A stretch of 64,000 nucleotides of DNA from Tubiluchus corallicola. Taxonomy: Eukaryota > Animalia > Priapulida. The notes below the pieces were generated by a model. It was given only the letters and a program-made list of their open reading frames with translations, was not told where the DNA came from and searched no databases. Positions 1-59,990 of the stretch are shown here, piece after piece. A program made the translations under genes and the position numbers. Positions within the stretch are counted from its first letter, which is position 1, and each line of letters opens with the position of its first letter. The stretch spans positions 1 through 64,000 of the forward strand of contig JAQGDQ010001004.1 in NCBI GenBank assembly GCA_030141605.1, in the 5' to 3' direction.

Positions 1-1957
1 GTGTCATAGGCGGAGTATTGGGTTTGTTAGAATGGGTACCGCGGGGTGGTTTAGCCTTGGTAGAAGTTGGTTTGGTGTTTATAAGACGGGGGCAACATGC
101 TGTCTTAATTTTCGTACGACAAGTCACATAAATTATAATAAAGATTATAATAAGTGCTATAAATAAGTATGTTGTCAATGATGCACCCTTATGATTGGAA
201 AAGTCAACCGGTTTGGTTTTGAATAATTCATCAGTGTGGTCCAAAAACTTCTGTCGTTTTAATAAGAGATTTTGACTACCTTTAAGAGAAAAGTCAAGTG
301 GTTCATCCTCTGTCATTCGTGACGGCAGAGCTTGCAGTGTTTGAAGTGTTCCTATCGTAAAATTACTTCCTAATAAATCAACGTTCCAAGTACTTAAATT
401 AAGTGCCGTATCTAAGATTGTTTGGATGTCCGTTTGAGTTAAAGTAAGGTCTGAATGATTCTTAAAATATATTGGTAAATTTGCATATTTAGAAGATAGG
501 CCACACCCTGATTCTAACTGCAGGATCATCGGGTTCTTGATGGTGAGGGGGGTGCCAATCTTATGAGCCTGGCGGGGTACGTAACAAGATTTTATGGCTT
601 GAATTTCAAAACTCGGGCTAATATAATAAGTATTCTCAGTTAGAGGTATAATAACTGGTCCAAGTTTATTAATAATTCTTGCTCGTTGATCACAAAATAA
701 ATCTATTTTAATAGTGTCCTTGAAAAACAATGCCGCTGTACATGATTCTATTCTATCTGCAGGAAAAATTGGCGTTGGTGCTAACTTACAGATACGTTTT
801 GGGCTTTGAATACAAGCAAAGGCTTCATCTTTGGCTGGGAAAAAATATAGTGACTGCTCAATATTCGTAGCAATATACTGATGATCAATTTGGTTATATA
901 GATAAACAGGTTTATTAATATTGGTTGATGTCCGACGGACTGGGATCGATATTGCTTCAAAAATTTGATAGATGTGATTGACATGATATAAATCTAATGT
1001 TGTTAGGATAGCAAACCCTCCGGGAATTTGAATAGGTAATGCCGACATTGTTTCGTAATAATAGAATAATTGATTATTTATATCGGCTGGAAATATTAGG
1101 CTCTGTGGTAGCTGGTCCTCAATTTGTTTAAGAGACTTTTGAAGGTGTATAGGGGTTATTAAAGTTGGGGGTAATTTATTAAGAATTAGTTGATGTAAAC
1201 CTTGGGATAACGAATTCAATTCTTGATCAATGATTTCTAAGCTATAGATAAAGTGATCAAACAGCAAATTTGTTTGCAAGAATGTAAACAATTTATGTTG
1301 AGTTTTAGTCAAGTCATCAGTAAACTGTTTTGACAGTTTGTTAATGTAATGTCGAGTTTGAACTGATGCGTTCACTAAGTCATAAATTAACTCTGTATTT
1401 CTAGCAGAGCGAATTAGCGAGCTATTGATAAGGGCTAGGTTATTTTCTAAAATATCTTGCGTGTTTTGTTGCGTATTAAAGATACTCGTAATCTGATCTT
1501 GAAGATTTCGAAGATCTTCTTCACTCGCGGTTCCGATTAAAAATTTGAATGCCTTTCCTAGATTCGGAAAAATGCTTCGTTTGACGACGTGAGATTCATG
1601 GGCAGACGAGGCTATTAAATTCTTAATGGAATTTAAACGAAATTGTTGATTTCTGATTCTATTTTTAATAGCAGTTTTAAAGGCTTTAATCACTGTGACA
1701 GGTTTTTTAATTAATCTTAATTGTTGAATTTCGGAAAGCGTTCTAGTGAGAAATTCTTGAATGTGGTCCAACTGTATCGGCGCAATAAGTAGCCATCTTG
1801 CATTAGAAACTGGAGTATTTAATTTCTGTTTAAATATAACCCCTGGGCCTGTTTTAAAGGGAGCTGGATTTGGGAATGATTGTAAGGAATTAGAATGTAC
1901 AGATTTAAGAATATTGCCAATATTAGGATTTTGTATAAAAGGTTTGTAGTACTGGTC
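1..1957 (-). CDS. env: Envelope fusion glycoprotein, baculovirus-F/errantivirus Env-like (class I); 3'-partial
   Basis: Manual translation is stop-free from 1996 to the window edge. It contains GVIFKQKLNTPVSNARWLLIAPIQL, the dibasic site and fusion peptide HVVKR|SIFPNLGKAFKFLIGTASEED (KR at 1582-1577), heptad-like helices, GLHQLILNKLPPTLITPIHL, a Cys-spaced region (ACIQSPKRICK...SCTAALF...LFCD...KSC...SGC), TM LTTYLFIALIIIFIIIYVT (~178-122) and a Cys/basic/Pro tail. Acceptor TTTTTTTTCCAG| precedes 1957. Confidence 0.9.
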
Positions 1958-2059
1958 CTGGAAAAAAAATTCAAAAGGAATATTATTCAGGTTGTCCTAT
2001 ACAGATCATTTCTATGACTCTAAATTAGTAAGGTTAGAATAAATTTAAGATAAACTTAC

Positions 2060-2079
2060 GTATTTCCTGAAAGTTCCAT
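2060..2079 (-). CDS. env: Putative 20-nt initiating mini-exon of env (ATG GAA CTT TCA GGA AAT AC|gtaagt)
   Basis: ATG at 2079, GTAAGT donor at 2059, 102-nt intron to the acceptor at 1958. The join reads MELSGNTTSTTNLLYKILILAIFLNLYILIPYNHSQIQLP, which resembles a signal peptide. Confidence 0.6.
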
Positions 2080-2273
2080 ACTCTTTTTTTTTTCACAAAA
2101 ATTCAAATTATGAGATGGTGAGATTAACATGTATTCACAGCAAAAATTATTAAGATTAATGTGTATTCAAGGCAAAATTATCTTAACGTCTATTCAGAGT
2201 CCCTTACTATAAGAAAAATCTGGATGAATGGATTTAGTAGGTAACGGACAGTTATTTTAAAGGTGTATCCCTG

Positions 2274-2383
2274 GCGCATGTGCGCATGCGTAAATAAGTG
2301 TGGCTCAATTAACAATCTCGACTTATTTGGTGAGTCTTGAAATCCGATCAGCGTTGATCAAAGGGGGGCGAGTGAAGCACGTG
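2274..2383. promoter_or_regulatory. Candidate internal bidirectional promoter between env and the antisense gene
   Basis: Tandem NRF1-like GCGCATGTGCGCATGCG (2274-2290), G-run/GC box (2363-2370) and E-box CACGTG (2378-2383), between divergent ATGs at 2079(-) and 2781(+). Confidence 0.3.
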
Positions 2384-2780
2384 TCCACTTGCAATAATTT
2401 TGGCCTGGACAGCTAATAGTAAAAACAATTCATCTTTCTTCTTAAAGCCAGTTAATGTCCGTGGGAAAAGATTTTGCAGTCCCCTTTCTCAGGATAAGTT
2501 GTAGATCAGAATGGTCGTTAAGCTTCGGTTTTGCGTCTAGGGTTTTCACTATTAGTACTTTTATCGCTTAGTAATGAGCATTGGGGCCCAAACGGAGTCA
2601 AATTCTATACGCAGTATACGAAAGTTCCCAGGCCTCTCACATAAAAGAGACTTGCAGTTGTTGGTCAGTCCCTCTTCGTAATTTCTGTTCGTGTGGTCAA
2701 GGCGTCTTAATCAGTTGTGCAAAGTATTCAGTTTTTTTTCTAGTTTCACCAGTTTTACTAGTTTCAAAATAATAATAAAA

Positions 2781-3335
2781 ATGGAATGTGAAGTACCGAG
2801 AGATGCCTACTTATTGGCAGTAGAGCTCGAAATTACGAGCGGGAACTTTTACGATGTTTTGGATGAACGGGCACAGTTGCATGACCAACTTAGTCGTGCT
2901 CTAAAAATGACGTACTTGCCTGGCACATGCGAGCTTTTCTGCGGCAAGTCCATCATTGATGGAGTAAGTAATGGTTTTTTTTTTGTTTTGTTTTTTTTTT
3001 TTGAGGTAAGGACTATTATGTTAAAATCACTAGATTGCTAATTCTGCAGTTAAAAGAAAATTTGTCTCGAGGACTTTTAATAAAGATTTATATTCCTTTT
3101 ACAGGAAGAACTAGTGGTGCTAAAACTGAGCAGTATTCATGGGATGCCAGTTATGGCAAATTTACTGACCAAATACGCGCCCGGCCGGGTCCGCTTTATC
3201 AACCGAGAGAATTTTTGTATCTGCACCGCGGCACATAACATAATAACAATATGGGACCTGGCACGGGTGATGAGAGTATATAAACGCAACTGGGAGGAGG
3301 GAACGGAAGAAAGGTGGTTAGCGGTGAAGTGCTAA
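2781..3335 (+). CDS. Two-exon antisense gene inside the retroelement, 137 aa, unknown function (exons 2781-2963 and 3105-3335)
   Basis: aaaaATGg at 2781; phase-0 donor GGA|GTAAGT at 2964; T-rich 141-nt intron; acceptor TTCCTTTTACAG|GAA at 3105. The join fuses two ORF-track frames exactly in frame (MECEVPRDAY...SIIDG+EELVVLKLSS...RWLAVKC*). Exons are GC-richer than the intron. Confidence 0.7.
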
Positions 3336-5178
3336 GAAAAGTGGAAAATTAAAAAAAAATTTAAAAAAAATCCTAAAATTTGAAAAGAAAAAAAAATATT
3401 TATCCTTTATGTGGACATATCATATATATATAGAAGTGTGACTATGCATTATGGATCAAGGCGGATCGCAAGGAAGGTATGTTTGTATTTAGCATCATAA
3501 GTCATTATACAATAATCGAATATTCGCTGATTAGAGTCTACAAGGAAAATACCTTTTTTTTTCTACTGCATGAAGAATTACTAATTTGGTGATAATACTC
3601 TGCGTTGATGAGTCCGCGCGTTCGGTTTTAACAGACACTTGTCTAGACTATATATAATCTTTTATCATTGTCTAGTGATGCGCGTAATTTGCCGTAATTA
3701 ACTAGGGGTGAGTTGAATTATAGCTAAACGTGAGATGGATTATATTTTCTGACAGTTAGTTGGTTTTAACTTTCTCGTAAATGGTCGTTAGAATTTAAAA
3801 TGTATAAGTTATAAATGGTCATTTTTATCCGTTTTGAAATGATTGTAGTAATTAAAACTCTAGACTAAAACGTTTGATCAATACATTTATTCAAGTCGGT
3901 TATCTGAATTAGAAATTCCGAGTTTAATCTAGCTATAATCTTAGTTTAATATGTTGGTTATTCGTTCTAGTACTTCAATGGGGCTTGTTGAATAGAAATT
4001 CTTTTTATAGAGTAATACAGCGTAAATGTTCGTTGCTGTGTTAAGTATTTATTTAATTACACTTAGTGATATACCGTAAGATATCCTCCTAATGTCGATA
4101 AAACAATATCTAAATACTCTTTTTGAAATATTCTTTAAAATCGTTACAGCAATACACAATTATTCTGTCAATCATTAGAACGTTGTGCAAATATTCTTGA
4201 ATCATTTAAGCAATATCCCTCTCTGGAACTTGTGTAGTTGTTAAGTAAATTTATACGCTACATTATCTGAAGGGAAGCGCATTAAATAAAAGTCTCTGAG
4301 TGTCTTTAGGCGTGGTAAGCCCCAGTGTAAGTTTATGTGACGTTTAGAAGCATAACATTGGGCGTCATTCACGGGGGGCCATTTTATGGGCTAAGACTTT
4401 TAGCGCTCATATGGTTCGTTGCCGTGTATGTACCCAGCATGTATCAGTAGGAATGAAACACGATCTTTATATGGCTTCTAGGAGAGAAGTATTCTTAAAG
4501 CTTGGGAATCCTGGGTCGTAAATTACGAAAGTGAAAGTCATGAATGAAACACGACGCCTGCGTGGCTCAGCGCGGTTTCTTAGTGAAACTTCTTAAGAGT
4601 CCGCGTGTCATAAATTAAGAAAATGAAAGTCTGATCGCCTTCTATGTAAAGTCATGAGTGAGGGGGGGGGACGGCTTCATGTTAATGTTCGTAATGTACT
4701 TACCGATATATATTCTTGTGGTGTTAAGTCGTGTCCGGGCTTGAACTGGTACTAAATGTTTTGAACTCATACTAAATGTTTTAATAAAATAGTTGCATGA
4801 ACAGCCTCGATATGCATAAGCATGCCGTATGTGACATTTAAACGTCACACACGGGAAATGCTTTCCCGGGAATCGAAAAATGTTCATACTCTAAACACTT
4901 TCGTTATACATAAAACTTGTACTTACCTTATACATAAAGAAACATGGTTGATGACGTTCTCGTCCTTAAAATGGTACTATTCTATTTTATAACACTAAGG
5001 TATTACCTTATAATATAAAAATGCTTTGATTGTAACAGTAATATTAAACGTTAGAGTATGACCTTATAATACATGGTAACTTTAACTGTAACATTAATAT
5101 TATTTTAGTTATTGTTTGCAAAATTTTCGGCGTAATGTTTTAAAGATGCCTGGTTTTTGCAACTTAATTAAATTAATT

Positions 5179-5193
5179 CTGGCACGCTTACCA
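5179..5193 (-). promoter_or_regulatory. Primer-binding site, tRNA-Arg-like (TGGTAAGCGTGCCAG)
   Basis: TGG-initiated motif 12 nt inside the LTR end; resembles the tRNA-Arg PBS pattern (TGGCGACCGTGACAG) of 412/mdg1-type gypsy elements. Not checked against host tRNAs. Confidence 0.5.
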
Positions 5194-5205
5194 GTAAAAT
5201 TTATA

Positions 5206-5552
5206 TGTTATGTTTATGAGCTGAGTCGTATAGTGGTAGTACTTGTTGGTGGATTATTGAGGAGGCCGCAGCCGTTTATTGACGTGAGGTGGTGACAAAG
5301 CTATAAGACCTGGATTGATGAGCGACTAACACATTTATTTCACAATAATATATTACATGGTAAAGTACATATCATAGCTCTGCCGAACCGCCCAAGATCT
5401 GTTCCTGCTTCCTCGAGATTCCCCCGTGATCTGATCTCCCATTCCACTTGGCTTCCTTCAGCTTTTTGGACTCACAGCGCATGCGTTATAATTGTTGCTA
5501 GTCTGACAATTCAGACGGGCAATGTCCATATATGGAACTCAGTCACATGACA
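5206..5552 (-). repeat. 5' LTR (347 bp)
   Basis: Termini TGTCATGT...ACATAACA (7/8 inverted match), two minus-strand AATAAA (5275-5280, 5334-5339), followed by the PBS-like motif. The second LTR is not in the window. Confidence 0.65.
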
Positions 5553-5879
5553 GCCGCACCTAAAATCATGGCTTCATTTCTACATATCTCTCATATCCCC
5601 TTCATAGAGTCGTTTCATTTCTGAACTGCTAATACTAATCATACAATTATCATCTTCTCTTTACTTTCGTGCACGAGGCGCCATCTGTGGCGGGAATGTA
5701 AAGCCTTTGGTTTTGGTCAGTTTCTCAGTTTGTTACCTGCTAGTCACCTGTCTGTTTTGCTCACCTGTGCTCTGAAAAGTCAGATTAATCGACTTTATGG
5801 GATATTTGGGACATTTATGTACTGATTATGTTACAATAAAGCATTCAGTGGTATTAACCTCTGTTGACAGTGTTTATGT

Positions 5880-7450
5880 GACCACAGCTCTTTTTTGTTT
5901 CTTGCTACTCCTTCCTAGACTGTGGCGCCCATATAAAAAAATATCGCTCTCTGGCAACTCCCAAATTAAAATATATCACGAAATCTTTCGCTAGTTCTTT
6001 ACCGTTGTTTTTCTTTATAAATAGGAGGTATGTTTCAACTTTTCTTTACATCTGTGTGCAGATAAAGGATTAATTTTTCTATTGCACTCCTGCATTTAGC
6101 AATAATTCTAATTTGGGCGATGTATCAGGGCCTTAAAAGCACCTGAACTGTAGTCACCTAAACTACTAAACAACATTACTGTGGCATGATAGATCACACT
6201 AATACAAGACCCATTTATACAAAATAATGTAAGTGATTTAAAATGATTGCTCATAAGACAAACACTTACCATAAAACATATGCAGGACAGTTATAAAGAT
6301 AGAATTAGCTTGCTGATAGCTGCCGCTATTCCATTTTTAAATCACCAAGCAGCCACAGTCTATTTATTAGACAAAATAGAAAACTAGGGCGTGGTCACTT
6401 CTGTGGTTAAGTGCAAAGAATAAATTGTTTCATACAGTAACCAAATTTTCACTTTTCCAACAAAATCACACATTTTGCACTCAAAATCAGTATTACACAG
6501 TAGGAGCACTGCTCACGCTTATAGCAAGACTGCAGAGCAAATGATTTGCTTGAGTTGTCTCATCTTCACGCACTTGAAAGTTACGCCTATAAACTGACGT
6601 GTTGGAGTTGATCACCATGACAGCTTTTTAACTCCGCCTCAAATTCTTGAGCACTAGAAATATGGCGCCAATAATGTTTGTTTGAACATTTTTAATAGAC
6701 GCAATGTTCCTTCACTTTTTAAGGGCAATCTTGCACAAGTCGACCATCTTACTACCAAATCTTTTCTTTCTTTTTAAGAATTTACAGAAACATAAATAAA
6801 CTTCAATAAATTGTTATAGCAGGATAATATGACCTGCTTAATCTTTGTTACAGTTATGGTCAAAATAAAAGACCTGCATTGTGTGCTGAGCTTAGAGCAT
6901 GTCAACTGAACTTGTGTCTTACGCCATAGAATTTGGTAAAATTTGAAAGATGTAGAACTTCTATAAACTTGCTCACACATTCCATTTATGATTCGAACTG
7001 TAAAATACTTCGTATGTCTTTGTAAACTGTTTCGATTGAAATTGTAATACAACCAGCAGGCAATTTAGTAAAAACTAGAATGGACTTGTATGTTGTGAAA
7101 AGCTGTTCAGGTTTCTTCATTACACTCACATTTATGTGACTCTGGTATGTTCTTATGAAAATAAATGGACTTGAATTGGATTAAAATTGTCAATGATTTA
7201 AATCAGAGTTCCTTTTTTACGTTACCAAAAGCTTTTCAAAGTTGCACATTACAACCCAGTCATAAAATAATTCTAGCAAAATCGCTATGACCCGGATTAT
7301 AATAATCAGCAATTTTAATCAGAATTGAATTTTTAATTATAAAAATCGTCCGATGACAGACCATTTCGTGGCATATTGATAAAAGAGCAACAGCAGATTT
7401 TCGTAAACAAACACGTTTTTCACCCAAATTTGCATTCTGCTAAAATGCAT
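5880..7450 (+). repeat. Duplicated block A, copy 1 (copy 2 at ~19030-20560)
   Basis: Long colinear matches, e.g. ataggaggtatgtttcaacttt, cacttctgtggttaagtgcaaagaataaattgtttcatacag, ctctggtatgttcttatgaaaataaatgg; reciprocal indels. Confidence 0.9.
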
Positions 7451-14671: not shown

Positions 14672-14902
14672 AAGCAAACAGGTACCAAGCGTCAGTTGGC
14701 TGTGACGAATGATGACTATGCAATGGGTGCTCTTGTTGTGGCACACTCTCTCAAGCAAACAGGTATGATGCATAAGTTGATTGTGATGAACAATGACTAT
14801 GCAACGTGTGCACTTGTTGTGGCACACTCTCTCAAGCAAACAGGTACCAAGCACCAGTTGGTTGTGATGAACAAAGACTATGCAATGGGTGCTCTTGTTG
14901 TG
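14672..14902 (+). pseudogene. Tandem 81-bp repeat (~2.9 copies) of a glycogenin N-terminal fragment
   Basis: Units start at 14672, 14753 and 14834. Translation TNDDYAMGALVVAHSLKQTGTKHQLVVM matches the glycogenin (GT8) N-terminal motif TNDxYxxGALVLxxSL. The rest of the enzyme is absent. Confidence 0.8.
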
Positions 14903-15054
14903 TTCTGTTTTACAAACATTGCAAATAAGATTATAATAAAGTGCAGAGTTCGTGAAAGAAGAAATACCTGACTGTGTAAACATAGATTCTTCATCCCAGG
15001 GCATTTCGATCAACTTGAGAGATTTCACAAAGATTTAACATTCCTACAAAGGCA

Positions 15055-18480: not shown

Positions 18481-19029
18481 TTATCATATCACAAAGTTAA
18501 AACTAAATGATTGACTAACTATTCATATATATATAGATAATATATATATAATTATCTTTATTTGCCATTAAAATACATTGTTAATCACTGAATAAAAACT
18601 TTACAGAGATGGTCACTCAGTGTTAGTTAATAAAACCTTACACTGCTAAAGGCAAATGCGTCAGTGCAATCTAAACTACTGTGCTGTCATGGAAAGTAAC
18701 GATGAATAAAATCAAACTGGTTTACAAATATGCACAAAAAATGAAAAAAATATGAATGAATTAATTAATTAGCACAGGCGACCAACTGCCTAGCTTAGCT
18801 AACTAACTAATTAACAATCTTCACACAGTCACCTTTTTTGTACAGCACGAAGCCTCAAATCATTATATGTCCCCTGCTTTGCTTGTTGTGCTGCGTTTCG
18901 AAAAAAAAAGAATTAGTACGCCACTTACTGGCGCACTGGCACACACAGACGCTGCAAAATGGCGGACATTGAGAAAATTTGCCAGATGCTCTTTTTAACT
19001 TTTCAGTAAGTTTACAGTTAGATATTTCT

Positions 19030-20560
19030 TTGTTTTTGTTGCTACTTGCTAGACTGTGGCGCGATAAAAATATCGTTCTTTGCTAGCCCACAAACAAAAA
19101 TATTTCACGAAATATTAGTTAGTTTAAAAAAGTTGTTTTTTTATTAATAGGAGGTATGTTTCAACTTTTTTGCGTCAGTGTGTAGATAAAGGACGCAACT
19201 TACTATTGGATCCCTGCTTTCAGCGGTATTTCTAATTTGGGCGATCTGAGAGTGCCTTAAAGTTCCCTAAACTGTAATCAGGCCTTATATACAACCAAAC
19301 AATATTATTGTGTCATGATAGATCACAGTTCTACACGACCTATTTATGCAAAACAAAGTAAGTAATTTAAAACGATTGCTCATAAGATTAACACTTACCA
19401 TAAAACAAAGCGGCACAGCTATAAAGACAGAATTAGCTTGCTGATGCCTGACATAAACATTGTAAAGCAAATTCATACTCCATGCCATATTCCAGACAAA
19501 TCACGCGGATGACGTCACGAATGAACTTGAGCTACAGTAGCTGCTTACAACTTAAGGAGGCTTTAAATTCAATAAACACACAGGCGCTTTTTCACTTTTA
19601 CTGAAACAACGTTAATTTAAAACTTGCTTTATGAAATGCCACCATTCCATTTTTAAATCACCTTGCAGCCACAATCTGTTTATTAGACAAAATAGAAGCG
19701 TGACCACTTCTGTGGTTAAGTGCAAAGAATAAATTGTTTCATACAGAAACCAACATTTTCACTTTTCTAACAAAATCACACATTTTGCACTCAAAATCAA
19801 TATTATGCTTCACTAAAAGCTCTTCTATTTTCGCCTAGAGCACTGCTCACGCTTATAGCAAGACTGCAAAGCAAATGATTTGCTTGAGTTCTCTCGTCTT
19901 CACGCATCTGAAGGTTACGCCTATAAACTGACGAGTTGGAGTTGGTCACCATGACAGCCTTTTAACTCCGCCTCAGATTCATGCGCACTACAAATATAGT
20001 GCCAATAATGTTTGTTTGAACATGTTTAATAAACGCAAAGTTCTTCTTTAAGGACTTCTTTAAGCTTGCTCGCACATCCCATTTTTTATTCAAACTGTAA
20101 AATACTTCGTATGTGTTTATTAATTGCACATAATTTCGATTGAAATTGTAATACAACAATCGGGCATTACAAAAACTAGAATGGACATGTATGTCGTGAA
20201 AAGCTGTTCAGGTTTGTTCATTACACTCACATTTATGCAACTCTGGTATGTTCTTATGAAAATAAATGGCCTTGAATTGGATTATAATTGTCAATGTCAA
20301 TTTTCAAATTTGTGTTCCTTTTTTACGTTACGAAAAGCTCTTCAAAGTTGCACATTACAACCCAGTCAAAAAGTAACCAAAATAAATCCATTAAAATTGC
20401 GGATTTTAATAATCAACACTTCTGATCAGAATTGAATTTTTAATTTTAAAAATTGTTCCGTGACGTGGACCATTTTATGGCATGTTAGTAATAGAGCTAC
20501 AGCTGATTTCTGCAAACAAACATGTTTTTCACCCAAATTTGGTAAAATGCATCTCCTTCA
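19030..20560 (+). repeat. Duplicated block A, copy 2
   Basis: See copy 1; carries ~190 bp extra at ~19445-19640. Confidence 0.9.
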
Positions 20561-29505: not shown

Positions 29506-31399
29506 GTCTTTTATAAAAAGGGTTTCCTTGTCCTTTAACTTACCTCACAGTTTCAATGATAGGATAAATTGGCGTCAACGTTTTCGCAATTAGTCAATGT
29601 CAGCAAGTTGAAATCAGACTTTGACCTAACGCGGCTTCAGTTAAATGAATACTAAAGTCAAGCTCGGCGTATGTCTCTGACATGATTAGATCAGAGTCGT
29701 CTGATGAATGAATTTCTCATAAGCTTAAACTTATTTATTGCAACTACTGTAATTATCGATTTGTTGTAAGTTCAACTACATTGGTCAATTTTAGCTCCTT
29801 GGCTTGGCAAGTCATCAGATTGTAATGGACAAATACAAAAATGTTTACTCAGTGGATGCGCAGCTTCCAGTACTGTCTAAGAAGCCATTGATGCTATAAC
29901 AACTGATGAATGCTATATGCCCGTAATAAAACAGATCCATTTAGGCTTATGCATGTGTGGCTATTATGTGCTAAGTTTTGTTGATTATTGCGGCACAATC
30001 GATAACTTTCACTTATTGTCACAAGACGCTGTATTAAGTTCATGTTCTACATTAAACACGTGTAGATTTACTATGTGTATTGTACGAAGTGTCATGCTTC
30101 AAGGGGAAGAATTTAAAGCATGTCTCGAAAAACTTTTCATAAAAAAGTTATATTACCTAGCATTATGTTTAGCTGTTCGAAAAACTTATCTAATTGGAAA
30201 AGAAAATTATTAATAATTTAGAGCATTAATGTATTACAATAAACGCACTAGTTATCCATTTAATAAACCAAACATCATTCTTTTGTAATCATTCTTCTAC
30301 AGAATCGTTCAACGGGAATGAACTCCAGGACCTGCACAGCTCATGAGGCGGGCATCTCACAAATATACATTCTATTTTCACGTGACAGCTCTTACCAAAC
30401 CAGCCTGGGGCGAATTCGAGTATTTCAGCCAGTTGAGTTTATTTTTCAGCGATCTGAAAAAAAGGTGGTGCATATTTGACACTTCAACGCAATTAATCAC
30501 GGCGTCCATATAAACAGCTAATAATCCATATATATTAATTGTTTTGTATCTCAGTGTTTGGCTTTTACAGACAGTACGTGTAGGTGAAGTAAGCCAGAAA
30601 ATATCAAATCTATATCATTGCTTTTTCTCCTTGTAAATAATTTAGGGAGGACATGGTAGGGCTGCCACTGCAAAATTATTGATCATTTTTGAAATTTTGG
30701 TATGTAATCGATAGAATAGTAAACATCACTAAACTTTTTAGTGCGCCCTTTTCAGCTAAACTGCTGTGTTACAGACTAGTGGTTTCAATCACAAGACCAC
30801 GTTCAATTTAGAAGTAGAATGACAACATCATTTCGTCAGTAAAAGTCCTAGCTGCTAGTTAATAAGGAAATTAGGACGAGCAGACTGAGAACTAATTAGC
30901 CAAGACCGTATTAAAGTTTTAAGTCGCAGATGGATTTGGAAATCATTCCTCTAATAGTGATGAAGCCGTGGTGTGCATTTCTGATTCCCAACGTGTTGCT
31001 TAGGATTACTCGAAATTGCCTGGAGTACGTTCAATACACACAGCAAATTTTAGACAAGACAACATTGCGTGATGCTATACTATTTAGTTACTACAAGGCA
31101 CGTGCATGACAAAGAAGGAGCAGCAAATACATGAGTACAAGCACCCAATGGCAGTACCTACTTAAAGGAGATTATTGGTACTAGTCAGATATTAAGCCTC
31201 TCAAATGAAACACTGAAGTAGCAGAGGTATCTTAACCACGGTCAGGTGCATTCTCACTCAAGGAAGTAAATATCGGGGTAGTGTAGCAAATAAAACGGCC
31301 CACCACCTGGAAACAGCCATTAAGTCCGCTTTCTTACTTACCGGGCTCTGCATTGTTCAGCTCCGTAATTCCCAAATCCCATTTTTCTGTATATATTAT

Positions 31400-32340
31400 C
31401 AAAACAGATTCGGTTCCCGTTTTGCAGTGTAAAGTGTATGTATACGCAAACCAGATACTATTTAAACGGAGTTCCTATTTTGTTACATATACGCAAACCA
31501 GATTTAGTAGAGACTAGGTTTTTGTTTTGCTGCGTATGCACAACCCAGATTCGGTACAGATTTGGTTCCTGTCTTGCTGTGTACATACAAACGTGATTCT
31601 AAACAGATTTGGGTCCTTTTTTGTTATGTATTCACTCGATTCCTGTTTGCTGTATGTACACAACCAGATTTAGTACAGTTTTGGTTCCTGTTTTGCTGTG
31701 TATCGCAAACCAGATTCAGTACAAACTTTATTTATGTTTTGCTCTGTTTGATCAAACCAAAACCGGTACAGGCTAGGTTCTTGTTTTGCTGTGTGTGCAC
31801 AAAACAGACTCGTATAAATCTGGTTTCTAAAATTCTATTGTGTGTACACAAAACAGACTCGATACAGGACTCGATTCCTGTTTTTGCTGCATATTAACAT
31901 TTAACAAACTAGATTCGATACAGACTTTGTTTCCTATTTTACTGTTTATACACAAATCAGATTCAGTACAATCTTGGTTCCTGTTTTGCTGTGTACATAA
32001 ATCAAATTCGGTACAAACTAGGTTTCTGTTTTACTGCGTTATACACTCACCAGATTCTGTACAGTTTTGTTTGGTTCCTATTTTGCTGCGTAGGCACAGG
32101 CAAGACTCAATGCAGATTCGATTACTGTGAATGCAAAAACCAAATTCGATAGAGTTTGGATTCCTGTTTTATGTGTATGATTAAACCAGATTGCGTACAG
32201 ATTTGGTTTCTATTTTGCTGTGGATACATAAGCCAGACTTGATACAAACTTAATTCTTGTTGCGCAGTGTGCGCACAAACCCGATACAGTACAGACTTGA
32301 ATTTTGTTTTACAGTGTACGTACCAACCAGACTCAAGTGC
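31400..32340. repeat. Degenerate ~47-bp minisatellite (~20 copies)
   Basis: caaaccagat...acagatttggttcctgttttgctgtgt units at 31446, 31493, 31540, 31587, ... Confidence 0.85.
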
Positions 32341-48780: not shown

Positions 48781-50973
48781 TATAGCCTACATTTATTTTA
48801 ATATTGTTAGTGAGTAAAAAGGCATTCGTGAATTGTAATTTGTTATCATTTCTGAATGCCCTACTCTCCAACTGTGTCATAATTGTTTGACTTATAACGT
48901 CTTACCTGTGACAACATTGTGATTTACTGATTTACCGCAAATTTCAACCATTTTTGTATAGTTTTGATACAGGCTGAAAATAAAGACGACTAGTTCGAAA
49001 GCATTTGATTAAAAGCTTCACCAAACTTTTGCATGTTTTTTAACTACTTCTATCTAGTTGGTATACATAGCGTTGATACAGGCAATTTCTCATCTATTTC
49101 TAAACAGCACAAAGCAAACATTACAGAATAAAGAACGCACAGAACGCTTTTCAGGTGGTGAGTTATTCGCTTAATAACAAGCCCCAACATTACTTAAAGT
49201 ACAAAAAACACCCTTCATAAACAAAGCTTAAAAATGTCGCCTTGTAATTTTATATCACTTACACGCTGTCTTATTGGATACAGAGCTTGCGTTAACAGTA
49301 ACGCTGATTAAAACTTGTAAATTTAAAACTTCCGCGATGACCATTTTAACGGCAAGTCCTTTGTGCCACAAATTTACAGAACATTGTGTAAAGTTAAAAA
49401 AATAATCACAGCATTCGTAGCACACTCTTCGTTAACTAAGCTTAATCTTGTCAGTAAGATTAATAATGTGTTTTTGGTGAACCAGTGGTGCACACTGGGA
49501 TGGTGTCGCAGTGTTGTTGTACCAGGTGGCGCGAATATTTTAAATTACTAAGAATTTTTTCCTGTTACATAAGTCTTTCCAACAGCTAAGCGTAATCCTA
49601 AGTAATATAACTTTGTATGGAAAGTTTTTTGAAAAATACTTTAAAATTCCATTTTCTTCCCCTTTAACTAAATTCGGTCGCCAAGCACACACGTTAATCA
49701 ATAACCATTCAGTCATGCCAATCGCATTCAAAAAAATTTAGATATTACAAAATAATGACATCTGTAATCAATTGAGCGTTGCGCAGATCTGATTCTACGC
49801 GCAGATGATTACGTTTCTGGAGTACTTTTCGTTAATAAATAATTTATAAATTCTGTTTACATAGGCCAATAACGGACATCCTACTGGTTATAATTATTTC
49901 ATAAGATCAATACCAGAATTAATGAAAGCTAAAACAACATATTGGGCAAGCCCTACAATCGGAAATTCGCTATTTATTTTCCTGCGTCACGCCCATTAAA
50001 TATGTAAAACGTGTAATTATACATGTATTCCTAAAATTGTTAACCGCAATAATAACTGTGTACACAAACAAAAGGGTGCGTGCGTGCGTGCGTGGATAAG
50101 GAGGTGCCTAACGGTGAATAAGGAGGTGCCTAACAGTGAGGAGTAAGAAAACAAAGCATTGACAACAAATAAGCAAATGATTTTATGAAACAGAATGATT
50201 TCATGCACAAGCCAGCGGCCATTTCTGATTCAACGTTCTATTTTTTGCCACTCATCAAAATAAATAAGCTTATTGTACGTCATGGTAAGTGATTTTTACG
50301 GCTGTAAATGTAAAACATTCACAGGAAGCTTAATTTGATGGGGTATATTAACTTAAGGTGGAGTAATTATTGTACTATATAGTGTAATTTGTTTGTTTGA
50401 TACGCTGTTACGCACCTAAAGATCTTACCTAGAATTCATATCTATGTGTGGGGAATTATGTCGATTTAAAGCCGATGTTATGTGCGCGAAGTATTATTTT
50501 ACTCTATAGGTATTATGTGTGTTGCTTGTAAAATTTGTGTTATACGAGGCTAACTTTTCAGAGTTTACTACTTCCAGTTTTGTACCACGAAACGCTATAC
50601 CATGCAACAGCAGGCATTTCAACGTCATCGGAAACCAAGTAGTCCATGAAAAATGCGCAAACACTGTATGCTGTGCTTCTCGAGATATTGCGGGCATTTC
50701 AGAAGACTCAGCACTATCACCAAACCATCCCTGAACCAATTCTTCATTGTGAACTATAGGAAATTTTCAATTTTTAATTTGTGGTCTATAGGCGTTTTTC
50801 AGTACTGCTGTACTCCCTACTTCTTCCTCCTTACAATACCCTTTTATTGTGTATTTTTGTATCCATTGTACTGGTTGTTTTAAACTAAATTTATTCTATT
50901 TTATTCTATACTGGGAGTTCAGTCTTTTCATAAGACTTACAGAATTGTGGTTTAGCTGAATTTAAATTCTTAC

Positions 50974-51796
50974 CTTCGAGTTGAAATTTTTCGGCAGCCG
51001 GCAAAAGCAAATGAGCCATTTCAGCCATCTTGTCTGTGTGATTCGTATAAATGTAGTTAATCATCTCGCGCACCGTTTCAGAATCAAAGTCTTTGACTTT
51101 CAAATGACTATGTCCCATTGGTACATCTGGAAGGTATTTGTGGTCGAATGTTTTTGCCAGTACCGGCGACTGAATGCACAGTACAGCTTTGTGAGCGTGA
51201 AATGTCTTCTCGCCCTTTTCACCTGCCGTAATGGTAACGTCGGTGTGGTTCTTGTCCACAAGGAGTTTTTCACCTAAAGTCTGTTGGACAGCCGACCCGT
51301 TTACAGCATTATTTGTTATGTACCATTTGCATGGCTGTGTTGGAGGACTGGGCGGTATGCTGTGTCGTCCAGACTGTTTAATGTCCAAGTTACAAAAGAA
51401 GAACAATGAACCGTCTGGAAGCAAGTGCTCCTTTACCGCCTCCAACGGCAAGAATTCTCTCCATCCCCAGTCGGTACCCCATTCATCGTGCGTCGCAGAC
51501 TTACTGTGGACGCACGCAAAATCCTGGTCACGAATTCCCAAAGAATAGATAACCTCAATATCCGGTTTTTGTGTGACGGGTCTGTTCTGGCCGTCGAAAA
51601 ACTTGATGAGTTTCAAATACACGGAAATGTATTCCTTTGCCGGGTTCTCCCTGGCGTACGATTTAAAATAAACGCGCCACTGAATTTTAACTATTTCATC
51701 TCTCGGATACGATGCGAAAAAATCCATAGCCAAATCGTCGACCGTTTTTTGAAAACGATGCAAGAAATCTGGCACCTGAAACGCATAATGCGCCAT
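50974..51796 (-). CDS. Divergent SPOP/TDPOZ-like MATH-BTB protein (Cullin-3 adaptor), first coding exon
   Basis: gccATGg at 51796 with an upstream in-frame stop; MATH motifs (EYISVYLKL, DWGWREF, LLPDGSLFFFC); BTB motifs (TDVTI, FHAHKAVL..SPV, VREMINYIYT, LLPAAEKFQLE). Phase-1 donor G|GTAAGA at 50973 where homology ends; the unspliced ORF stops at 50906. Confidence 0.9.
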
Positions 51797-53059
51797 GGCT
51801 TAAACTCTCCACTATAACAAACACTTTTCCAGTATCCGGTGGCTGCTTACCACTGCATGCCAAATAGGTTATTAGCCTTATAAGCAGGCAATCAAGTCGC
51901 TTCCATGCAGTCCCATGATTCACTCACAGGCTAAATATTGCTGGATTGGTTGATGCGCCCGATGACATCAGCGTTGCTGCTGTGTGTATATACTATCACT
52001 ACTTGATGAAGCAGCGAGCTATTGATTTCGAACAAGCTGGTTTCATCGAACGTTGCAACTTCCAATGTAAGAACGCCAGGCTTCTTCCAATGAAGTTGGT
52101 TATAGGGAAAAGAGACTGGGACAGTTGTCGTGACGCCTGTCATCTAACGTCATGATTTTTCTTTTTTTAATTGCATTTTCCCCTTACAAATAATTTTAAA
52201 TGATCCTTGATTCGTTTGTCTAATTTTACATTTACATTTCGCCTTATTTCAAATTCCCTGGTTTAGATGTATGTTTATACATTTGAACTTGAGATTTACT
52301 GTATACCTTGAGTCCATGCTGTTAAGACCTTGACAACTTGTTATTAGCCTGTACGCTTGTCTATAAAAGCTTGTATTAACTTGTATCTGGGAACATTTGT
52401 CTAGGTGAGAGACATAGGTTCCAGTGACAGGTGTTTTTTTCTCTTTATAGTATTACTCTTGTTTATTTGATCATATTATTGTTTGATGTGCATATTATTG
52501 CTCGAGTGATGAATTGTCTTTGCTTAGTAAACTCAGCTTTATTCACTACGTCGTTTTTCTAGTCACACTGTTAAATGGTTTGTTTGACTTTGCAGAGAAT
52601 GAAAAGTCTAACTTATTTTGAACACCTCCCTTAATCTTGTCAAAACTGCCATGAGAGATTATTTTGAGAGATTTTGTTTCGACTAATTTACAAAGCATGC
52701 CTTGAAAATTTAACTAAAACATTACAAAAGTGTTGCGTACATTATACCCATTTTTGTGTCGTGTCTGTATTCTGCATATTTTTTATCTGCACTTGCCTGC
52801 TCATACACTATTCATGTTTCTGTTGCAAAAACTAGCTACTCCGTAATCAAATACACAATGTTTGCATTATTACACGCAGAGCTGAGAAATTGCTGTCTAT
52901 GTGAAGCATTCCCTCCAGGACACGTTATTTTTATTTTATTTTATTTCAAATTCATTAAAATATGCATTAAAAAATAAACTATAAAACAATAAAAGCATGA
53001 AAGTGGACGTAAAGAGACAAGCTGCTTGCATACGCCTATCATACACAAGTCATTTATCA

Positions 53060-57372: not shown

Positions 57373-59990
57373 AATAATAATAATAATAATAATAATTTGT
57401 TTTTCACATCAGTACAACACTACAGGGCAAATACATGTACAAATAATAAAATAACCAAAATAACAAAATATTTTACATCAAATCAGAAAAATTTATATTG
57501 GCCGTACATATTGTACTGCAGAACGTTGAAGAAGCTGACAGCTTATAAAATCTTTCTGAAAATGTGAAAAAGAGAAGAAGAAAAAGGTTAGTAGTAATAA
57601 TAAACGTTAGGGAAAAATAGTGCGAAGTATGGAGATCGATTGGGGTGGTGTATATTACGATAAAAACTATATTCTTAAATGATAAGTACTACGTATAAAG
57701 GCATAGACAAAGACAGACATAAACTACAATTAATATTTGCAAATTTGATAATTGACAAAGATATATGTTATGTACATATAATATGTATTAACAAAATAAG
57801 CAGAAAAAAACACATAAAAACACAGGTAGTCAATAATTGCTGAAAAAATGACTTTTCATTACTTTCTTAAACTTTTAAATTGAGTGAACTTGTTTTACAG
57901 CTACATGAAGAGAATTCCAGATTTTAGGTGCAGTCATTCTTATAAAGTGTTTCATTGCATTGGTTCTACAGGGCGCTGTAATGTATTCATTAAATCTGGT
58001 GTTATGGACTTTGGGGTTTAAACTGACTGGATTTGCAAAAAAATTAGGGAACAGATTGTTTTTGCTTTATACATAAAGGTACAATAAATAAACATTGTAA
58101 GACACGAGATCGTCAACCGTTAGTATCCGACAGTCTTTAAACAGTTGAGTAATCACAGGATGGTGGTATGGTAAACAATAATTGATTCTTGGGAATTTTC
58201 TTTGTAGAGTACCGAGTTGGTTTAAGTTGGTTACGTACGTTTTACCTGAGAGAATATTACAGTAGCTAAGGCAAGGCGAAATCAGGGCGTTGTACAAAGT
58301 TAATAAGTTAGACTTGATGAGACTACGTCGTATATATGAGATTATTCCAACATTTTTTGCAATCTAATTACTGATCATAGTTATATGGAGTTTCCAGTTT
58401 AGATTTTCGTGTAATACTACGCCCAGGACTTTATTTTGATGTATTCGTTCTATTAGACGGTCGTCTATTTTTAAGTTAATTGTTGGCACAGTTTTGTTCT
58501 TAGAGTGAAAGATAATGCACTTTGTTTTATCAGGGTTTAATGGTAACTTATTAGCTTTAAACCAGTCCGAGCAAGCAGATAGTTTGTAATTCATTTCTGT
58601 CTCAGTTAGAAAACTGTGATCCATAAAGATAGAGGTATCGTCGGCAAGTTGAAAGATTTTAGAATCATTCTCTAGCGTGTTAATGTCATTTATGTAAAGC
58701 AAAAATAAAAGTGCGCCTAGAATTGAGCTCTGTGGAACCCCCGTTTGTAAGATTTGTGTGTTTGAAACAGCATAGTTACATTTAGCAACTTGGGTACGAT
58801 TAGTTAAATAATTGCGAAACCATGAATTAGCTATGCCCTTGATCCCATAATGGTTAAGTTTATCAAGCAGGATAGAGTGATCAACCGTACTGAAGGCCTT
58901 CGATAGGTCACAGAATATACCTACTAACAGCAATGGAGTTGTTTTAAATAACGTTAACAATTTTTTCACAAGCTTTTATTAGAGCTATATCACAGGACGA
59001 ACCCTTGCGGAAACCAAATTGATTTTCACTTAGTAGTTTATGTTTAGTTAGAAAATCTGTCAACTGATTGTGCATAGCTTTTTCAAATATTCTGGAGAAA
59101 AACGACAACAATGAAATTGGCCGGTAGTTATTAATGTCAGTAAGATCTTTTTTATGTAGTGGAATAATAGCTTGTTTGAGTACTTTAGGTATGTCGCCAC
59201 AACTAAACGATAGGTTAATGATGTGGCTCAACGGTGCAGAAATTAAGTGTATAATGTCAGAGGCAATATTTGGAGAGATATTATCGATACCAGCACTTTT
59301 GTTTGAATTGAGAAATTTTGTAATTATTGTGACATCTTGAGGTGTAACAGGTTTTAAAAAAACGATTTGTGAAACGCCCCTCGAAGATAGTCTGTAATAC
59401 ATAGATAATGAACGGTAGAATTTATGATTTTTTTCATCGTATTTTAGCCCAATAGTTGCAAAATAGGTATTAAACTTTTCAGCTATATCTTGACCGTTAG
59501 ATACAAGCATGCCATTTTCGTCTCTATGTTTAGTTTGATTGATGCACGTAATACGATTACTCATAATTTCCTTCATGGTATCCCATGGGTTTTTCATGCT
59601 GTTTTTGCAGCTTTCGAGCTTGTCATTATAGTATTTTGATTTAGCGTAGGTGTTTAACGTGTTTCCATACTGTCTGTAGAATTCTAAAGAGATGCTACTG
59701 TCTTTATTAAGAATTTGTCTACACATTTTGTTTTTGCTTGTTATAGAATTTAACAGGCCTTGCGTTATCCACTGCTTCTTTATTAACTTGCCATCAACGT
59801 TTTTACCGTTCCACAGTTTGGATTTAACGCGAGATGAATAAACCCTTGTGAAAGCGTTTCCATAGCCTCATTAACATTTGTTTCGTTTAACGTTTCATTC
59901 CATGTAATATTGCTCAAATCTTCAATCAATGCTGCTTTAATATTTTCATTGTATATAGTTTTTTTTGTAACTTACTGGCGCAGCAATATT
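57373..59990 (-). mobile_element. 5'-truncated L2/Crack-like LINE; ORF2 disrupted by frameshifts
   Basis: ORFs 58944-59726, 58364-58969 and 58067-58297 give KSAGIDNI, NYRPISLLS, QFGFRKG, DLSKAF, GVPQSSILG, LADDT, LNPDKTK and LGVVLHENLNW; APKIWNSL near 57920; (TTA)n tail at ~57373-57395. Confidence 0.92.

What the first reader, a model, noticed from the sequence alone, without database searches (positions are those of the whole stretch)
1..5552. Retrovirus-like element with an intact env but no visible gag-pol between the 5' LTR and env
Seen: LTR, PBS, only ~3.1 kb lacking any long ORF or recognisable protease, RT (YxDD), RNase H or integrase motif, then a stop-free F-type env. Known: errantiviruses are LTR-gag-pol-env, with gag-pol taking several kb more than this. 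Inferred: this is (a) a non-autonomous 'env-donor' element complementing a gag-pol partner in trans, (b) an element with env upstream of gag-pol, or (c) an env kept after gag-pol deletion, possibly by host co-option.
Basis: partly seen in the sequence, partly recalled or inferred. Interest (0 to 1): 0.85.

Follow-up and report, generated by a model that had tools for sequence, protein, structure and literature searches.

The report
Broken copy of complex envelope retrotransposon
This is one internally deleted, likely dead copy of a young envelope-carrying retrotransposon family in what is likely a priapulid worm; the lost piece likely held gag-pol, so it is not an "envelope-only" element, but the family is unusual for a 3-kb stretch before env that holds a predicted spliced gene on the opposite strand.

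Summary
The LTR is 5665-5193, with a 4-bp target duplication. Its 'PBS' is a deletion junction: in two samples LTR contigs leave the window at 5189 for at least 1,753 other bases, env-side contigs reach 5194 from at least 747 other bases, and the two overlap by 6 nt. No listed contig spans the window's junction. The env is likely frameshifted near 1894. So this copy is a deletion derivative of a young (about 99.7% identical), multi-copy family. I could not read the lost piece; gag-pol there is inferred. What remains unusual belongs to the family: a spacer of over 3.1 kb, a predicted two-exon antisense gene (137 aa, no homologue found), and an env with its own predicted start exon and intron. 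A published errantivirus survey would have missed this layout and lists no priapulid element. New variant of a known kind; interest 0.4.

The parts
5666..5669 (-). 5' copy of a 4-bp target-site duplication (CGAA on the minus strand)
   Evidence: One X1 contig leaves the LTR end at 5193 with the same four letters and then a sequence like the continuation of the interrupted host repeat; chance of a 4-mer match about 0.006. One contig only.
5193..5665 (-). 5' LTR, 473 bp, 6-bp terminal inverted repeat AGTAAA...TTTACT; TATAA at 5490, AATAAA at 5339 and 5280
   Evidence: Window letters; zero-difference contigs at 2-4 times (X1) and 2.7-5 times (X2) the internal depth; host repeat breaks at 5666 in 12 X1 contigs
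5189..5194 (-). Deletion junction with 6-nt microhomology (CTGGTA): LTR end plus first PBS letters joined to an internal site; at least 1.75 kb, likely 2.5 kb or more, is missing
   Evidence: LTR-side contigs match down to 5189 and then differ (X1, X2, X4; X4 record 1,819 nt); env-side contigs match up to 5194 and then differ (depth 986, 50, 25); chance of a >=6-nt overlap about 0.002
2080..5188 (-). Family-wide spacer of 3.1 kb before env, with no gag/pol homology
   Evidence: Covered by deep near-identical contigs in X1 (731-986) and by X4; no Pfam family in six frames
2781..2963 (+). Predicted antisense gene, exon 1 (ATG, 61 codons, GC 46%)
   Evidence: no homologue; Atlas best score 0.84, a lead only
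2964..3104 (+). Predicted GT-AG intron, 141 nt, GC 25% (an alternative in-frame donor lies at 3006)
   Evidence: no RNA evidence
3105..3335 (+). Predicted antisense gene, exon 2 (76 codons and stop, GC 48%); spliced product 137 aa
   Evidence: 0 of 300 block shuffles and 2 of 300 Markov sequences reach 137 aa; 1 of 18 other window stretches does; Atlas lead to WD40 repeats 0.94, not confirmed by Pfam
2060..2079 (-). Predicted env start exon (ATG, 20 nt)
   Evidence: Joined to 1957 it reads into a hydrophobic signal-like stretch; prediction only
1958..2059 (-). Predicted env intron, 102 nt, GTAAGT...T-rich tract-CAG, GC 25%
1..1957 (-). F-type env main exon: signal-like stretch, likely frameshift near 1894, dibasic KR cleavage site ending at 1577, fusion-peptide-like segment, cysteine-rich head, transmembrane helix about 187-122, tail running off the window
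5670..6100 (.). High-copy host repeat into which the element inserted (right limit approximate)
   Evidence: Loose ends at 5666 and high depth; 75% partial copy at 19026-19224

Best explanation
This is a properly integrated but internally deleted copy of a young, multi-copy LTR retroelement family with an F-type env, and the lost segment likely held the primer-binding site and gag-pol. Shown: LTR ends, the junction, the multi-copy spacer and env, the F fold. Inferred: the parent is LTR-PBS-gag-pol-spacer-env-LTR and works like a Ty3/gypsy errantivirus. The deletion most likely arose during reverse transcription, when plus-strand strong-stop DNA (LTR plus first PBS letters) landed on an internal 6-nt match instead of the PBS (about 0.6; microhomology repair after insertion about 0.4). 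The product kept both ends, integrated with a 4-bp duplication, and could not be primed again; its env then or earlier took a frameshift. In the parent, env is predicted to be made from a spliced mRNA with its own start exon, likely from an internal promoter just upstream of 5194 or from the LTR, and an antisense two-exon gene is predicted to make a 137-aa accessory protein. My guess for that protein is a regulator of unspliced-RNA export or of transcription, because the env intron is kept in all copies seen and so genomic RNA must be packaged unspliced; this step is untested.
For: Junction: LTR-side contigs in X1, X2, X4 leave at 5189, env-side contigs arrive at 5194, 6-nt overlap exactly at the LTR-PBS border. 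Family: six X1 contigs covering 3,061 nt of env and spacer differ from the window by 7 substitutions and 1 gap, at depth 731-1,048 against 292 for a zero-difference flank contig. LTR depth is 2-5 times internal depth, as for two LTRs per element plus some solo LTRs. Target duplication. A relative with a homologous env (E 2e-37) is a complete gag-pol-env element (L001). 6 of 8 listed env differences fall at third codon positions (P 0.02), as expected if env works in the family. Aberrant second-strand transfer giving deletions at the PBS is described for HIV-1 (PMC12657518, passages).
Against: I never read the lost segment: gag-pol in the parent is not shown, and the shown minimum (1.75-2.5 kb) is less than gag-pol needs (about 5 kb in L001). 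No listed contig spans the window's own junction in X1, X2 or X4, so it is not independently confirmed. Only 1 of 6 related loci is a complete gag-pol-env element, and it is distant (25% identity). The 3' LTR is outside the window and rests on one contig. Depth is a poor copy counter by the tool's own warning. The env codon count uses only the 40 of 536 differences that were listed. Both splice models and the internal promoter lack RNA support, and the antisense protein has no homologue.
Confidence: 0.68

Rival explanations
1. The parent family itself lacks gag-pol: it is a non-autonomous env and accessory-gene carrier, mobilised by a sibling family with a near-identical LTR, to which it supplies Env in trans. 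The window copy is still a deletion of it.
For: A more abundant LTR variant exists (5224 variant at depth 7,148 of 8,514 in X1; an X4 contig with 3 differences in 62 nt, depth 195, continues into a third sequence). The lost segment is unread and its shown minimum is short. Env looks constrained.
Against: No positive sign that gag-pol is missing from the parent; the one complete relative is autonomous (L001); LTR-to-internal depth fits a self-contained family. One paper search for env-only non-autonomous elements listed 7 papers, none on such an invertebrate element by title or abstract start.
Confidence: 0.12
2. The junction is an assembly error, or a recombinant between two families that do not otherwise share this LTR.
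For: No listed contig spans the junction; the window's alleles at several sites are absent from the listed contigs.
Against: Contigs drop rare forms by the tool's own statement; the overlap falls exactly on the LTR-PBS border, which fits a biological mechanism; LTR and internal depths are in proportion in X1 and X2.
Confidence: 0.1
3. The parent has a permuted order (gag-env-pol or env-gag-pol), with pol beyond the window's left edge.
For: Such orders are described (PMC13524379, sections 5 and 14); the sequence after env is outside the window; 2.5 kb would hold gag alone.
Against: In that paper the gag-env-pol elements of nematodes, bryozoans and flatworms carry gB-type env, not F-type; L001, with a homologous F env, is gag-pol-env.
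Confidence: 0.07
4. The host has co-opted this env.
For: A long open frame with complete F architecture.
Against: The copy is about 99.7% identical to a multi-copy family and likely frameshifted near 1894; it sits inside another repeat.
Confidence: 0.02

Closest known systems
'Ancient' Ty3/gypsy errantiviruses with F-type env (Chary and Hayashi, PMC13524379)
   Same: LTRs, F-type env with cleavage site, fusion-peptide-like segment and transmembrane helix, near-identical multiple copies in an invertebrate; related locus L001 is gag-pol-env.
   Different: This copy lacks PBS, gag and pol. The family has over 3.1 kb (at least 3.8 kb with the 747 nt seen upstream) before env, against about 60 nt in L001; that survey allowed 1,000-nt gaps or looked 3,000 nt past gag-pol in protostomes. 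'priapul' occurs only in its list of screened genomes, 1 of 7 supplementary files. 'antisense', 'accessory', 'splic', 'internal promoter' have 0 hits in its main text.
Tor3b/Tor4b elements of Oikopleura (PMC4402516)
   Same: [quoted passage not shown]
   Different: Those env RNAs showed no splicing; here env has a predicted local intron, and the promoter is only inferred. No antisense gene appears in the passages read.
Retand elements of plants (PMC11963269)
   Same: Long post-pol region (2.9-6.6 kb) with antisense ORFs, proposed regulatory (abstract).
   Different: Plant lineage; its antisense ORFs mostly carry the TRP28 domain; the ORF here has no Pfam match, is predicted to be spliced, and lies before an F env.
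Cer1 and its CERV protein, C. elegans (PMC10309623)
   Same: An env-bearing invertebrate LTR element class with an accessory protein from a spliced mRNA; CERV is needed to export unspliced genomic RNA (abstract). A model for what the ORF here might do.
   Different: CERV is 517 aa and shares sequence with GAG (passages); no similarity was tested or found; the ORF here is antisense and 137 aa.
Defective proviruses from aberrant second-strand transfer (HIV-1, PMC12657518)
   Same: Large deletions that start at or near the PBS in integrated copies (passages).
   Different: Vertebrate retrovirus; here the mechanism is inferred from junction position alone.
Priapulus caudatus env-like proteins XP_014678289.1 and XP_014665127.1
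   Same: Best hit (E 2e-43) and nearest tree neighbours, support 92.
   Different: Only 24-26% identical; the window row is a long branch; their genomic context could not be fetched.

Membership tests
Ty3/gypsy errantivirus | LTR with short terminal inverted repeat and a target-site duplication | tested here: met
   473-bp LTR, 6-bp inverted ends; 4-bp duplication from one contig
Ty3/gypsy errantivirus | tRNA primer-binding site after the 5' LTR | tested here: inconclusive
   The window's 12-mer has 2 mismatches to 2 of 189 tRNA ends listed in PMC13524379 (by eye; my hand estimate of chance is about 0.3), but other copies diverge after its fifth letter. The parent's primer tRNA is untested.
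Ty3/gypsy errantivirus | gag ORF | tested here: not met
   Absent from this copy; the parent's lost segment could not be read
Ty3/gypsy errantivirus | pol with protease, RT, RNase H, integrase in gypsy order, and RT placed in Ty3/gypsy | tested here: not met
   Absent from this copy; so the copy is not filed as a member, and BEL/Pao parentage is not formally excluded
Ty3/gypsy errantivirus | Polypurine tract and 3' LTR after env | not testable with these tools
   Outside the window; no genome held
F-type (class I, baculovirus/paramyxovirus F-like) Env | F fold and family profile | tested here: met
   Foldseek to RSV F E 2e-10, model pLDDT 77; Baculo_F E 8e-5, under the cut-off, while close hits pass it
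F-type (class I, baculovirus/paramyxovirus F-like) Env | Basic cleavage site followed by a hydrophobic fusion peptide; conserved cysteines; C-terminal transmembrane helix | tested here: met
   VVKR then SIFPNLGKAFKFLIG; the Arg and G, L, F, G are at least 90% conserved and 5 cysteines invariant in 60 sequences; helix at about 187-122. The site is dibasic, not a full R-X-X-R.
F-type (class I, baculovirus/paramyxovirus F-like) Env | N-terminal signal peptide in frame | tested here: not met
   The signal-like stretch is in another frame in this copy; 80 of 120 full-length hits have such a stretch in their first 45 residues
Non-autonomous env-donor element | Several insertions sharing the gag-pol-less structure, with working cis signals and intact env | tested here: not met
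   The deep contigs of all three runs laid on the junction have other sequence on both sides of it

The most novel reading that the evidence does not exclude
The parent family is a satellite retroelement: it has no gag-pol at all, carries a working F-type env and a spliced antisense accessory gene behind its own promoters, and trades Env for Gag-Pol with the more abundant sibling family that shares its LTR end, a two-component infectious retroelement in a priapulid. (A milder case, a 'complex' autonomous errantivirus with an antisense accessory gene, I put at about 0.45, interest 0.6.)
Probability: 0.12. Interest if true: 0.8.

Novelty: new variant of a known kind. Interest (0 to 1): 0.4.

Why it matters
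The copy itself is ordinary debris and should not be cited as an env-only element. The family matters modestly: if the gene models hold, an invertebrate errantivirus-like element has a complex-retrovirus layout (long pre-env region, spliced antisense accessory gene, separately started env) in a phylum with no element listed in the 1,512-element survey, and that survey's distance limits would hide such elements. It gives a simple test of how much env-bearing retroelement diversity has been missed: search again with pol-env gaps of several kb.

Tried and rejected
No genome held, so no genome-wide copy search. No second LTR copy in the window. Word-based homologue search for env found 1 protein. 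Env, an env alignment, L001 pol and an LTR pattern found nothing in viral contigs. A 60-row env alignment was too diverse to scan with; a 13-row one without the window sequence gave 6 loci of 294 candidates: L001 complete; L002 and L003 decayed env with pol pieces on the other strand; L004 and L006 short; L005 decayed env with no Pfam hit in 3.6 kb upstream. Decayed gag/pol in the spacer: rejected (no frame with a long stop-poor run except the antisense ORF region). No tRNA in the window; no Rfam match in 1-6500. Antisense exon 1: no word-sharing homologue among proteins of 65-209 aa; exon 2 was not searched that way. No RNA holder listed; the RNA-guess run X6 laid nothing, and X5 covers neither element nor flank: neither is evidence. 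A few low-depth X1 joints inside the element were not interpreted. The slower tree did not finish; the FastTree one used 60 rows, P0037 left out as short. Four look-ups of earlier scan notes gave one unrelated note. Ten paper searches listed no paper describing this layout in an invertebrate F-env element; the library lacks most subscription papers, and the store of supplementary files gave no answer, so this is not proof of novelty.
Full report
What was checked. The element lies on the minus strand. A stop-free frame runs from 1996 to the window edge (665 aa). It is an F-type env: Pfam Baculo_F at E 8e-5, just below the curated cut-off; 788 relatives at E<=0.001 among 1.84 billion representatives; five invariant cysteines and a conserved cleavage-site and fusion-peptide motif in 60 sequences; an AlphaFold model (pLDDT 77) whose listed matches are all RSV or hMPV F, best E 2e-10. 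The spacer has no gag or pol trace: 63 short ORFs gave three unrelated hits at E 0.04-0.06, six frames read through stops gave none at E<=0.5 while control gag and pol were found, and tblastn with the gag and pol of a related element gave nothing better than E 0.85.

The LTR. No genome is held, so I laid public contigs on the window. Four runs from two samples hold 65-81% of its words; X1 and X2 are one sample and may be the source of the window. Zero-difference contigs run straight through 5552, so the LTR does not start there. A high-copy host repeat is interrupted at 5666 (12 X1 contigs). The stretch 5665-5193 is 473 bp with inverted ends AGTAAA...TTTACT. One X1 contig leaves the LTR end with the four letters of 5669-5666 and then resembles the rest of the host repeat: a 4-bp target duplication, from one contig, which may be this locus or an equivalent site.

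The junction. In X1, X2 and X4 the deepest internal contigs (depth 986, 50, 25) match up to 5194 and then go on with non-LTR sequence, for 104 letters in X1 and 747 in X4. LTR contigs in the same three runs match down to 5189 and then go on with other sequence, for 1,753 letters in one zero-difference X4 contig. The two sides overlap by six letters, CTGGTA (chance about 0.002). So other copies have at least 1.75 kb, about 2.5 kb if the two contigs do not overlap, where the window has none. The apparent PBS is the first five PBS letters fused to an internal site. Its 12-mer does match 2 of 189 published tRNA ends with two mismatches (by eye), but I estimate that at about 0.3 by chance. Against this reading: no listed contig spans the window's own junction. 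That fits a single rare copy dropped from contigs, or an assembly error; it does not fit the junction being the family's main form.

The family. Six X1 contigs covering 3,061 nt of env and spacer differ from the window by 7 substitutions and one gap, at depth 731-1,048; a zero-difference flank contig has depth 292 and minor variants 84-300. That suggests about 3-10 copies, a rough figure since the tool warns that depth is no copy number. LTR contigs are 2-5 times deeper than internal ones. Six of the eight listed env differences are at third codon positions (P 0.02; only 40 of 536 differences were listed). The spacer is therefore a feature of the family and not an insertion in this copy.

Env is likely broken here. 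The long frame has no start or signal peptide before the ectodomain, whereas 80 of 120 full-length relatives have a hydrophobic start. An ATG exon (2079-2060), a 102-nt GT-AG intron and an acceptor at 1958 give a signal-like hydrophobic stretch, but in a frame that ends in a stop. The deepest contigs differ from the window by a one-base indel near 1894 (851 of 1,011 in X1; 24 of 34 in X4).

A predicted antisense gene. On the plus strand, 2781-2963 and 3105-3335 join in frame across a 141-nt GT-AG intron to give 137 aa. The exons are 46-48% GC, the intron 25%, the flanks 31-37%. None of 300 block shuffles and 2 of 300 Markov sequences reach that length; 1 of 18 other window stretches does. No Pfam family or homologue was found. 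The Atlas gives exon 2 a WD40 lead at 0.94 with low shared-feature counts and exon 1 only 0.84. No RNA run was available, so the gene is a prediction.

Host and relatives. The best env hit and nearest tree neighbours are Priapulus caudatus proteins (support 92, long branch), and a flanking MATH-BTB gene is 63-68% identical to P. caudatus proteins. The host is likely a priapulid. Of six related loci, one (L001) is a complete gag-pol-env element with about 60 nt between pol and env.

Mechanism. Shown: LTR limits, junction, multi-copy spacer and env, F fold. Inferred: the parent is an autonomous errantivirus-like element. A junction that starts inside the PBS and ends at a short internal match is what a misdirected second-strand transfer would leave; such deletions are described for HIV-1 (PMC12657518, passages). 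Repair after insertion is the alternative. Either way this copy has no primer site and is likely dead. For the parent I predict a separately started, spliced env and an antisense accessory protein; an RNA-export or transcription role is a guess by analogy with CERV.

Comparison with what is known. PMC13524379 (abstract; first parts of sections 5 and 6; sections 11, 14, 15; passages; supplement searches and the tRNA sheet) describes F-env errantiviruses across animals, allowed pol-env gaps of 1,000 nt or looked 3,000 nt past gag-pol in protostomes, screened P. caudatus and lists no priapulid element. Tor4b elements have a pol-env space and an internal env promoter without splicing (PMC4402516, passages). 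Plant Retand elements have long post-pol regions with antisense ORFs (PMC11963269, abstract). Rotifer LTR elements capture extra ORFs (PMC5408684, abstract). Cer1 has a spliced accessory gene (PMC10309623, abstract and passages). Passages of PMC5443660 and PMC3383448 added only background. That AGT-type LTR ends and 4-bp duplications are typical of fly gypsy elements is recalled and was not found in those passages. Each feature has a precedent; the combination was not listed in ten searches. The copy works like the remnant of an errantivirus but cannot be filed as a member, because gag and pol are absent and the parent's RT is unseen.

Verdict. The env-only element is not supported; this is a deletion derivative (about 0.85), of a parent that likely has gag-pol (about 0.8; jointly 0.68). 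The lasting interest is the parent's layout. New variant of a known kind, interest 0.4; the satellite reading remains open at 0.12.

Noticed in passing
window 50906-51799 (-): Intronless MATH-BTB ORF; the named hits are Priapulus caudatus proteins at 63-68% identity (2 of 4 hits named). With the env hits this suggests a priapulid host.
   Followed up: partly
window 5193-5254: A more abundant sibling LTR variant continues after the LTR end into a third internal sequence (X4 contig depth 195): two families share nearly the same LTR end but different 5' regions.
   Followed up: no
upstream of window 5194, in other copies: The 30 letters before 5194 in the deep X1 and X4 contigs include a TATA-like word, and a splice-donor-like GTAAGC follows at 5191: a possible internal promoter with a short first exon.
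   Followed up: no
window 5472-5630: Run X4 has no cover over 5479-5630 and one adapter-ended contig at 5472; contigs cannot show transcript starts, so this was not interpreted.
   Followed up: no
window 14672-14914 (+): Three 81-nt tandem copies that read like the N-terminal motif of glycogenin (recalled; Pfam found nothing): possibly a triplicated exon.
   Followed up: partly
window 58364-59867 (-): Two RVT_1 fragments of a LINE-like element; unrelated to the LTR element.
   Followed up: partly
window 31391-32326: Diverged 47-nt tandem array.
   Followed up: no
L001 1-8588: A complete, apparently circular gag-pol-env element with F-type env and three open frames in a metagenome collection record.
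   Followed up: partly
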